Positions 7,889 through 10,064 of a stretch of DNA of 64,000 nucleotides are shown here, in pieces. Origin of the DNA: Octopus vulgaris (lineage: Eukaryota); the NCBI GenBank assembly GCA_951406725.2, contig OX597826.1:45570001-45634000 (forward strand), in the 5' to 3' direction. The position numbers were made by a program, and so were the translations under genes. A model generated the notes under the pieces. It had not been told where the DNA came from. It worked only from the letters and a program-made list of their open reading frames with translations, and ran no database searches. How positions within the stretch are numbered: the stretch's first letter is position 1; each line of letters starts with the position of its first letter.

Positions 7889-9387
7889 ATTATCTACCAA
7901 ACTCCGTGACGTTATATCTCTTATTCTCATATGACAGCTTTTATATCCCTCTCATACTTCCTCCCATTTTCTCCCTCTATTTCTCTTTCTCTCTATCTAT
8001 GTGCCTATATCTCTCTCTTCCTCTCTCTCTCTCTATCTCTCGATCATTCATTATGTACGTTTATATGAACACTGTCTATTTATTTATATTTAATTCATCA
8101 CTACGTTTATCCTACACTGAACTAGTTCATTTTGACTTCTTCACTTCATACATCTGTCATCATATCCAACCTCACACCTAAGTCCCTGTATATCTCTGCC
8201 AATGTCATCACGGCAGTTATACCCTTCTCCTTTCCATCCTCTTCGTTCTCTGTAATTTCACTCTCCAGCCTCCATTTAAACTTCTGTTAATGTAACAAAT
8301 ACTAACCATAATCTCTACCTGCGAACGTCTTCGGAACAATGAAATGATATGAGCCATTAGTCACACTTACCGGCCCCGCTTGGTGTTTTTGTGAGCATTC
8401 TGTATCGTCAGTGAAATGCCAGGAAGTAATAGCAAAGACCTAATGGTTAGGGTTTTCGGTTAATAATCATACGGCAATGGGTTCGATTCGTGCACCGGGA
8501 GCTTTTGGCTTGTGCCCTTCGGTCAAGAACATCATTTCACGTTGCTCCAGTCCACTCACCTGTAAAGAGTACTGAGTACTGGGACAGTTCTCTTTCCTAG
8601 ATGCTCCGTAGGGTTAATGAAGAGGGAGCCGAGAAGTTGTTTATGCTTGCTCGCGTTTTAAGTAGACATTTCTAATAATCAAAGAATGTACGGTTCATTT
8701 TACAAAGCAGTGCACGCTTGCAAGTGACTTGTGGTTGAACTATGGTGAAGAGCTTTATTATATTGTTTTATAGTTGTTTTGTTGTCATTTTTCTTTTTTG
8801 CTGTTTGTCAATTTTTTTCTTTTTTCATTTTAATTTTCACCTATTTGTTCAAGTTTATATTTATTTATTTGTTTGTTTCAATTATTCATTTATTTAGAAT
8901 ATAATTCAAATTTCAGTCATGAAAATGAACGTCAGTGTGTTTCAAAGCCATATGTCTCAAAAAAAAAAGGTCATTGGAAAATGTGGCTGCACTCGAACAT
9001 AGTTTGAGAGATCATTGAATGAACAGAACTGATTTGTGGAATGTCCTAACTCAACCAAACCAGTATTCTATTGGGTTTTTATGACTTTAAATTATATTTT
9101 GTTTTAGTTATGTTTTATTGTAATTTTTATATATTTCTGTGCAAATACGTCTGTATGCATATATATATATATATATATATATATATATATATATATATAT
9201 ATATATATATATATATATATATATATATATATATATATATATATATATATATATATATATATATATATATATTTAGAGGAATATGGTACTTAATTTGAGG
9301 CACTAGAATTTAGTACGGTATTATCCATACAATTTCAAAGTAAGGTGATTAAAATCAAAATAAGCAACAAGGATATCCAGAAGCAAT

Positions 9388-9472
9388 GCAGTACGATCGT
9401 TTCATGTAACTCCATTTAATTGAAAAATGCAATCATTGCATCAATTTAAAATGCAGAGCAATCTTCAGCAGC
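9388..9472 (-). ncRNA. Type I hammerhead motif with long stem II
   Basis: Minus strand: gctg-CTGAAGA-ttgctctgcattttaaattg ATGCAAT g ATTGCAT ttttcaattaaatggagttacat-GAAACGATCGTA/ctgc. Confidence 0.6.
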
Positions 9473-9760
9473 ACAAAGACAGGATTAGAACAGATGGACA
9501 CATTAGTATAATTATACCTAAACTCTCCAGGAAGTTAAGGAGATACACAAAGAACATGCTGTCTCACTCCGTCTATCTCCTTAACTTCTTGGAGATTTTA
9601 AGTATAATTATACTAATATGTCCATCTGTTCTAATTTAATTAAATTCTAGGGCGGAACACTTTAAGAAAAGGATAAAAAACTTAGTTACTAAAACTATTT
9701 TTAAAAATATGTCATTACTGTATAAAATTGATTTAATCTAGGTAAATTCTATGTATTTGG

Positions 9761-9845
9761 GCAGCTGAAGATTGCTCTGCATTTTAAATTGATATTATGA
9801 TTGCATTATTCAATTAAATGGAGTTGCATGAAACGATCGTACTGC
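9761..9845 (+). ncRNA. Type I hammerhead ribozyme with long stem II
   Basis: gcag-CTGAAGA-[long hairpin]-GAAACGATCGTA/ctgc; perfect stem I gcag/ctgc, palindromic ACGATCGT stem III, GUA cleavage triplet ending at 9841. Confidence 0.7.
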
Positions 9846-10064
9846 ATTACCTCAGGATATCCTTGCTGCTTATTTTGCTGTTATATATATATATATATAT
9901 ATATATATATATATATATATATATATATATATATGTATGTATATATATATATGTATATATATATATATGATATATATATATATATATATATATATATATA
10001 GAAAGAGAGAGAGAGAGAGAGAGGAGAGGATAATATCAATTTCAAATTTTTAAATAAATTTTTT

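What the first reader, a model, noticed from the sequence alone, without database searches (positions are those of the whole stretch)
9272..9882. Foldback unit carrying a long-stem-II hammerhead ribozyme on each strand
Seen: a ~600-bp island between two (TA)n tracts, built of nested inverted repeats. The outer arms each encode a hammerhead, pointing outward. The plus copy (9761-9845) has perfect stem I gcag/ctgc, core CTGAAGA...GAAA, palindromic stem III ACGATCGT and a GUA site. Stem II is a ~58-nt hairpin (cattttaaattga/tcaattaaatg; capped by ATGCAAT-g-ATTGCAT in the minus copy). Known: Penelope-like elements and retrozymes carry type I hammerheads with palindromic stem III that cleave as dimers, and their pLTRs can be inverted. 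Inference: a non-coding, Penelope-mobilised unit whose transcripts from either strand could self-cleave or fold into a rod-like RNA; the very long stem II is atypical.
Basis: partly seen in the sequence, partly recalled or inferred. Interest (0 to 1): 0.85.

Follow-up and report, generated by a model that had tools for sequence, protein, structure and literature searches.

The report
Folded-back retrotransposon end with long hammerheads
This 600-base palindrome is two back-to-back end fragments of a common Penelope-type (Hydra) jumping gene, likely a dead by-product of insertion, and each fragment carries the element's predicted self-cutting RNA motif in an unusually long-stemmed form found thousands of times in this genome.

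Summary
It is a main copy (9273-9570, minus) and an inverted copy (9571-9881, plus) of the 3' end of a Hydra-clade Penelope-like retrotransposon (PLE), in (TA)n. Longer copies carry RT and GIY-YIG domains upstream. Inverted 5' copies and opposite-strand hammerhead pairs are published PLE features. All 27 close motif pairs among 200 listed hits point outward like this one.

The hammerhead is well supported as a structure: 5,968 exact-core matches against 5 in controls, with stems I and II covarying between families. A 37-67-nt stem II is the majority form here (5,055) and flanks intact ORFs of sister families. The 26 Hydra families in the published table have stem II regions under about 25 nt.

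At this locus both motifs have drifted, and in a read-through RNA each is predicted to be trapped in the fold-back (>100 kcal/mol). RNA reads showed no ends at the cut sites (inconclusive). Cleavage is untested.

Verdict: ordinary locus; the long-stem-II Hydra hammerhead is a modest new variant.

The parts
9159..9272 (.). (TA)n tract, left; the insertion target typical of Hydra PLEs
   Evidence: (TA)n preference in Craig 2021 File S1
9273..9570 (-). Main copy: 5'-truncated 3' end of the Hydra PLE family, ending about 121 nt past the predicted cut (long-tail end); 12-bp deletion near 9483
9273..9349 (-). Tail present at this end only; homologous to the leader between hammerhead and ATG in intact sister elements
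   Evidence: family tail vs L175 score 107.5, shuffled maximum 61.5; ATG at +208
9386..9474 (-). Hammerhead motif, minus copy; core intact, stem I mismatch at 9470, stem II basal pair broken at 9407; predicted cut 9392/9391
   Evidence: family letters also seen in reads
9571..9649 (+). Start of the inverted copy (79 bp lying upstream of the hammerhead in the element); pairs with 9484-9548
9649..9733 (-). ~81-85-bp piece of the same element's 3' UTR, from 1.5-2.8 kb upstream of the hammerhead in four natural copies, bounded by a duplicated ~18-bp stretch; likely a template switch
   Evidence: 89-91% identity to L080, L082, L164, L165
9734..9881 (+). Rest of the inverted copy, ending about 38-42 nt past the predicted cut (short end)
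9761..9845 (+). Hammerhead motif, plus copy: 4-bp stem I, CUGAAGA, 58-nt stem II (9772-9829, U-U at base), GAAA, palindromic ACGAUCGU, GUA cut site 9841/9842
9882..10000 (.). (TA)n tract, right

Best explanation
The island is a main and an inverted copy of the 3' end of a Hydra-clade Penelope-like retrotransposon, likely laid down back to back in one abortive insertion into (TA)n and now likely inert; each copy carries the element's type I hammerhead motif, which would cut only in transcripts of full tandem elements. Shown: both arms and the spacer belong to one dispersed family; longer copies carry broken RT and GIY-YIG coding sequence and a ~3-kb 3' UTR upstream of the same motif; intact sister elements have the layout inverted motif, motif, ~210-nt leader, ORF, UTR, motif. 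Inferred: the RT-endonuclease nicked (TA)n, copied ~300 nt from the RNA end, and re-primed or switched template, giving the inverted copy and the UTR piece. Inferred: in a full element the two same-strand hammerheads 4.6-4.7 kb apart pair through the palindromic stem III, cut after GUA and release a unit-length RNA that starts ~210 nt before the ATG. Predicted: at this locus a transcript from either strand folds into a long duplex that masks the motif.
For: Family and parent: 4,338 first-look candidates, 40 scored, 82-91% identity. Walks upstream reach L080, with an inverted motif-bearing copy at its 5' end, RT pieces, endonuclease, UTR, motif and (TA)n; L178 gives a second RT-EN-UTR-motif copy. 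Hydra motifs CxCX5C, DKT, CxxC and CxH are present. Published Hydra hammerheads often share core-T-TGC...GCA-T-GAAAC, and Penelope-13_HM has an inverted 5' copy with a motif on both strands. Orientation: 14 of 14 and 13 of 13 pairs under 8 kb apart among the first 100 listed hits of each search are minus/plus. Ends: 31 of 73 motif copies stop 23-57 nt past the cut (mode +38) and 42 of 73 at +119 to +155; 17 of 18 loci with two or more motifs have both kinds, as here. Decay: copies differ 4.6% on average from each column's commonest letter; core 21/725 vs flank 298/7230 (p 0.11); 25 of 61 keep core plus palindrome. Trapping: forming the motif costs 104-110 kcal/mol in the whole unit; palindrome duplex -10.0 vs monomer hairpin +2.4. 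Intact sisters: 5 of 7 stretches fetched hold 976-1091-codon frames next to motifs with 57-60-nt stem II.
Against: No intact ORF of the window's own family was found; the long frames I opened are 66-68% identical to its RT, so the tandem layout is borrowed from sisters. Clade placement rests on motifs read against a published alignment, not on a tree. Pfam and PDB gave no significant hit for the RT or endonuclease pieces or their homologs. G/C core columns vary less than G/C flank columns (8/241 vs 138/2030, p 0.04; one of several tests), which could mean some selection on copies. No cleavage was measured, and nearest-neighbour energies ignore tertiary contacts and co-transcriptional folding. 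The insertion mechanism is inferred.
Confidence: 0.88

Rival explanations
1. The unit is a non-coding element of its own (retrozyme- or viroid-like), copied as a whole by PLE enzymes, whose transcripts from either strand self-cleave and form a rod-like or circular RNA.
For: Both cores are intact. The unit folds into a rod (-276 and -294 kcal/mol). Similar short fold-backs are common among the best matches. A preprint links animal retrozymes to PLE pLTRs (part 1 of 5 read).
Against: Retrozymes are head-to-tail repeats with same-strand motifs; these are on opposite strands. No second locus spans the whole unit among 40 scored, and turn points vary from tens of bases to 2.2 kb. The minus motif has two broken core-proximal pairs. 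Each sense motif is predicted to be masked.
Confidence: 0.04
2. The fragment arose as above but has been kept by the host as a source of long double-stranded RNA (A-to-I editing substrate or small-RNA precursor) inside a read-through transcript.
For: About 210 bp of 90-94% paired arms. Family sequence is present in RNA libraries of a related sample. Heavy editing of repeat duplexes in cephalopods is recalled, not read.
Against: Arms have diverged like any two copies (5-7% each from the column majority). Only 3 of 1,358 raw reads laid were 99% or more alike, so they mostly come from other copies, and the A>G and T>C differences match this copy's own decay. No host exon was identified near the unit (ORF list only).
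Confidence: 0.05
3. The motif is a hammerhead-like relic that no longer cuts in this family: the U-U base and long insert in stem II have disabled it.
For: Pair 10.1-11.1 is U-U rather than G-C. The motif alone is 7-9 kcal/mol above competing folds. PLE hammerheads cut poorly in vitro. Rfam does not detect it.
Against: U-U at this place occurs in many published Hydra motifs and in an axolotl motif that cut 22% as monomer and better as dimer. Stems covary across families, and long stem II motifs flank intact ORFs.
Confidence: 0.1

Closest known systems
Hydra clade of Penelope-like elements (Craig et al. 2021, PMC8557442), including Penelope-13_HM and Hydra-1_Obim
   Same: C-terminal GIY-YIG endonuclease, CxCX5C linker, DKT, RW[KR], CxxC and CxH, (TA)n targets, type I hammerhead near the 3' end often with U-U at the base of stem II, inverted 5'-truncated copy, tail at one end only
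   Different: Published members are mostly under 3 kb with stem II regions under about 25 nt and a 1-3-nt loop III. Here stem II is 57-63 nt with an apical hairpin, stem III is an 8-nt palindrome, the 3' UTR is ~1.5-3 kb, sister ORFs run ~950-1,070 aa with Asn-rich inserts, and the tail is ~85-120 nt rather than 30-40. Hydra-1_Obim has a different motif sequence.
[quoted passage not shown]
   Same: Type I, short stem I, palindromic stem III, dimer model; that paper already reports pairs 100-700 bp apart on opposite strands
   Different: Helix II there is 6-8 bp with a conserved G10.1-C11.1; here it is a 58-nt interrupted hairpin opening with U-U
Non-LTR retrozymes (Cervera and de la Pena 2020, PMC7229834), e.g. 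axolotl HHR_Amex2
   Same: Type I motif with 2-bp helix III plus tetraloop and U-U at the base of helix II
   Different: Retrozymes are 150-450-bp head-to-tail repeats expressed as circles; this is an inverted pair cut from a protein-coding element
PLE-X1_sMoe and PLE-X1_sTam hammerheads (Craig 2021 File S2)
   Same: Long stem II region (about 50 nt) in a PLE hammerhead, flagged there as deviating
   Different: Plant rDNA-targeting, endonuclease-less Chlamys-side elements; unrelated sequence

Membership tests
Penelope-like element (EN+) | RT followed by GIY-YIG endonuclease upstream of the repeat | tested here: met
   Broken in L080 and L178 of this family; intact in sisters; absent from the window itself. 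Pfam gave no significant hit
Penelope-like element (EN+) | Inverted 5'-truncated copy and a tail at one end only | tested here: met
   definition
Penelope-like element (EN+) | Direct pLTRs flanking the ORF | tested here: inconclusive
   Seen in sisters L173 and L174; no such copy found for the window's own family
Hydra clade | CxCX5C linker instead of CX2-5CxxC | tested here: met
   P0001 and intact sisters
Hydra clade | DKT motif; CxxC and CxH around the conserved E and N | tested here: met
   L080, L082, L083; sisters
Hydra clade | RWK motif near the N terminus | tested here: inconclusive
   RW[KR] in five intact sisters; the family's own long copies are truncated before it
Hydra clade | Insertion into (TA)n | tested here: met
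   19 of 21 ends at +33 to +40 and 36 of 42 long ends run into TA-type repeats
Hydra clade | Generally short (<3 kb) | tested here: not met
   L080 spans over 6 kb; sister units are 4.6-4.7 kb. The paper gives this as a tendency, not a criterion
Hydra clade | Placement in an RT tree with reference PLEs | not tested
   Reference proteins were seen only in a paper supplement
Type I hammerhead ribozyme | Core CUGANGA, GAAA, NUH with stems I-III | tested here: met
   Plus copy; H17 is A in 59 of 59 motifs though not in the pattern; N7 is the one freely varying core column
Type I hammerhead ribozyme | Covariation in stems I and II | tested here: met
   10 clusters: stem I 28.7 of 30 cells paired vs 10.0 shuffled; stem II 26.2 vs 13.9
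Type I hammerhead ribozyme | G10.1-C11.1 pair and loop I-loop II contact of canonical motifs | tested here: not met
   U-U at 10.1-11.1, shared with published Hydra motifs; no loop-loop contact was identified
Type I hammerhead ribozyme | Self-cleavage | not testable with these tools
   Needs in vitro assay; read laying was inconclusive
Non-LTR retrozyme | Head-to-tail repeats with same-strand hammerheads, no coding parent | tested here: not met
   Opposite strands; part of an RT-EN element
Neptune or Nematis PLE | CX2-5CxxC linker | tested here: not met
   Linker is CxCX5C

The most novel reading that the evidence does not exclude
This genome hosts a large, partly still active radiation of Hydra retrotransposons whose hammerheads carry a conserved 57-63-nt stem II with an apical hairpin. 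That extension is a functional module, a tertiary or protein-binding arm that switches cleavage on and hands the cut, uncapped RNA to the ribosome 210 nt before the ORF. Intact tandem elements such as L174 would make the open question of what PLE hammerheads do directly testable.
Probability: 0.2. Interest if true: 0.6.

Novelty: new variant of a known kind. Interest (0 to 1): 0.3.

Why it matters
The locus itself is an ordinary retrotransposon remnant. The family-level point is more useful. About 5,000 exact-core hammerheads with long stem II lie in one animal genome; this one is missed by Rfam, and the spacer exceeds the 7-17 nt of one published core search, so counts of genomic ribozymes may be low. 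Young sister elements with intact ORFs and near-identical repeats offer natural constructs for testing whether PLE hammerheads set RNA ends, circularise the template or aid translation, which the papers read call unresolved.

Tried and rejected
Rfam scan at E<=1: no hammerhead; only weak hairpin and simple-repeat hits. Pfam on P0001, P0002, one more L080 frame and P0003-P0006, and PDB sequence search with P0003: nothing significant. My first clade guess, Neptune, was dropped after reading the Hydra section and alignments.

Sequencing runs: no RNA holder listed. Three raw RNA runs of a coded organism (6% of each read; 488, 538 and 332 reads laid) and one contig set showed no pile-up of ends at either predicted cut. 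The reads were mostly under 95% alike and looked unstranded, so this is no evidence either way. The A>G excess there was rejected as editing evidence.

The end-mapping ran on into TA repeats and was redone. Covariation within the family alone was set aside as uninformative, since copies decay after insertion. Loci picked by the exact core (L100-L163) and the window's own locus were left out of the decay count; 29 of the loci used had been chosen for likeness to the window. Three look-ups of earlier findings returned nothing. No tRNA genes in the window. Lunse et al. on dimer-cleaving PLE hammerheads was not held.

Full report
OBSERVATION. The island lies between (TA)n tracts. Its outer arms are 89% complementary over 132 nt and its inner arms match at 61 of 65. 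The minus motif keeps the core but has a stem I mismatch at 9470 and a broken basal stem II pair at 9407. My type I scan of the whole window returned the plus copy only. Rfam did not report a hammerhead.

THE UNIT IS PART OF A LONG REPEAT. A search of the own genome (G000, 2.8 Gb) gave 4,338 candidates; of 40 scored, only the window spans the whole query. Others are single ends or fold-backs with different turn points. Three steps upstream reached coding sequence. L080 reads: inverted motif-bearing copy, broken RT, endonuclease, about 3 kb of UTR, motif, tail, (TA)n. L178 is a second RT-EN-UTR-motif copy. Mapped on such copies, the window is a main 3' end (9273-9570, minus), an inverted copy (9571-9881, plus), and inside the latter an 81-85-bp piece of the same UTR from 1.5-2.8 kb upstream. 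The window holds no coding part.

CLADE. The RT piece found five homologs among longer proteins at 36-43% identity, four unnamed and one under an unrelated label; Pfam and PDB were blank. Craig et al. 2021 define the Hydra clade by a CxCX5C linker, DKT, RWK, CxxC and CxH motifs, (TA)n targets and canonical hammerheads. The family shows CxCX5C, DKT, CxxC and CxH; intact sisters add RW[KR]. Many Hydra hammerheads in their table share the core-T-TGC...GCA-T-GAAAC pattern seen here, and Penelope-13_HM carries an inverted 5' copy with a motif on each strand. I built no tree. The host is probably an octopod, judged from a recalled repeat sequence, not from a call.

THE TWO-STRAND LAYOUT IS ROUTINE. 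Cervera and de la Pena 2014 report PLE hammerhead pairs 100-700 bp apart on opposite strands. Among the first 100 listed hits of each of my two pattern searches, 14 of 14 and 13 of 13 pairs under 8 kb apart point outward. Family ends are bimodal: 31 of 73 stop 23-57 nt past the cut and 42 of 73 at 119-155 nt, and 17 of 18 loci with two or more motifs have both kinds. The window has +42 and +121. The long tail is homologous to the leader between motif and ATG of intact sisters, so it is likely the start of the next unit.

THE HAMMERHEAD AS A STRUCTURE. The exact core with a 6-36-nt stem II occurs 913 times (control 1) and with 37-67 nt 5,055 times (control 4). In 59 motifs from 60 loci, grouped into 10 clusters, the first three stem I pairs form in 28.7 of 30 cells against 10.0 when partners are shuffled, and stem II pairs 2-4 in 26.2 against 13.9; H17 is A in all 59. 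In 17 hand-picked long-stem motifs of related families, 88.9% of cells pair, 31 cells change on both sides (0 of 500 shuffles), and an apical 5-bp hairpin is 95% paired. Two of the five measures did not beat the shuffles, and relatedness inflates such counts. Five of seven stretches fetched around RT hits, six chosen for long frames, hold 976-1091-codon ORFs beside motifs with 57-60-nt stem II. L173 and L174 show inverted motif, motif, ORF, motif, and L172 has a 2,188-bp inverted repeat at 99.8%. The long stem is therefore likely the working form of young elements.

THIS COPY IS DECAYING AND MASKED. Across 61 family copies the core varies at 2.9% and the flank at 4.1% (p 0.11); G/C columns alone give p 0.04; CpGs in the palindrome decay at 13.5%; 25 of 61 keep core plus palindrome. 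The window's arms lie 6.9% and 5.4% from the column majority. Because the motifs point outward, a transcript from either side makes the antisense arm first, and forming the motif in the full unit costs 104-110 kcal/mol. The two motifs are never sense on one RNA, so they cannot form a double hammerhead in cis. No intact ORF of this family was found among the hits I opened. RNA reads were uninformative on cleavage and editing.

MECHANISM. Inferred: target-primed reverse transcription at (TA)n with early re-priming or template switching produced the inverted pair. Inferred from the sisters' layout and the published dimer model: in tandem elements the palindromic stem III pairs two same-strand motifs (duplex -10.0 vs monomer hairpin +2.4 kcal/mol), cutting out a unit-length RNA. 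A role in translation is a lead from viral 5' UTR hammerheads, untested here.

WHAT IS NEW. The 26 Hydra families in the published table have stem II regions under about 25 nt; two plant PLE-X motifs reach about 50 nt. Nine paper searches listed no report of long-stem-II Hydra hammerheads. The library lacks most subscription papers, Lunse et al. was not held, and I did not see the Cervera 2014 supplementary alignments or Repbase, any of which could bear on this.

PAPERS SEEN. PMC4209133: parts 1-2 of 4 and passages. PMC8557442: passages, section 11, supplement parts 2 and 54 of 59 and three supplement searches. PMC6765202, PMC7229834, PMC13725137: passages. 10.64898/2026.07.22.740005: part 1 of 5. 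Others: search listings only.

VERDICT. New variant of a known kind; interest 0.3.

Noticed in passing
L172 (G000:C9:84176000-84185999), L173, L174, L175, L177: Sister Hydra elements with intact 976-1091-codon frames, long Asn-rich inserts between RT and endonuclease, and repeats 98.6-99.8% identical in L172-L174; probably recently active.
   Followed up: partly
L080 and L082, 3' UTR (reverse-complement positions 7761 and 7773): A second CTGATGA core about 650 nt upstream of the hammerhead in L082, followed by a hairpin-like stretch but without the GAAA partner; looks like a relic hammerhead. The UTR also has internal duplications at 70-74% identity.
   Followed up: no
L123 and G000:C2:74848936: Copies of this family with a 35-nt stem II, lacking 23 nt between two short direct repeats; natural short-stem variants for comparison.
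   Followed up: no
L173-L174, L177 motifs: Stem III has a C-to-T change that keeps self-pairing through G-U wobbles, so these families are missed by my exact pattern and the counts are lower bounds.
   Followed up: no
L173:2995 (-), L176:162 (-): Other hammerhead types with different stem III sequences, probably from further PLE families.
   Followed up: no
L032/L056, minus strand: A 96-aa GIY-YIG-like fragment of a different PLE type next to a family copy; type recalled, not tested.
   Followed up: no
window 2289-2559, 4994-5268, 21134-21393, 27648-27955, 40433-40713 and others: Copies of a ~280-bp dispersed repeat at 70-79% identity to a stretch of L080; SINE-like by recall.
   Followed up: no
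window 53633-54220 (-), 11345-12333 (+), 56507-56914 (-): Frames resembling a Tc1/mariner transposase, a non-LTR element with restriction-like endonuclease, and an L1/Tx1-type element; labels recalled, not searched.
   Followed up: no
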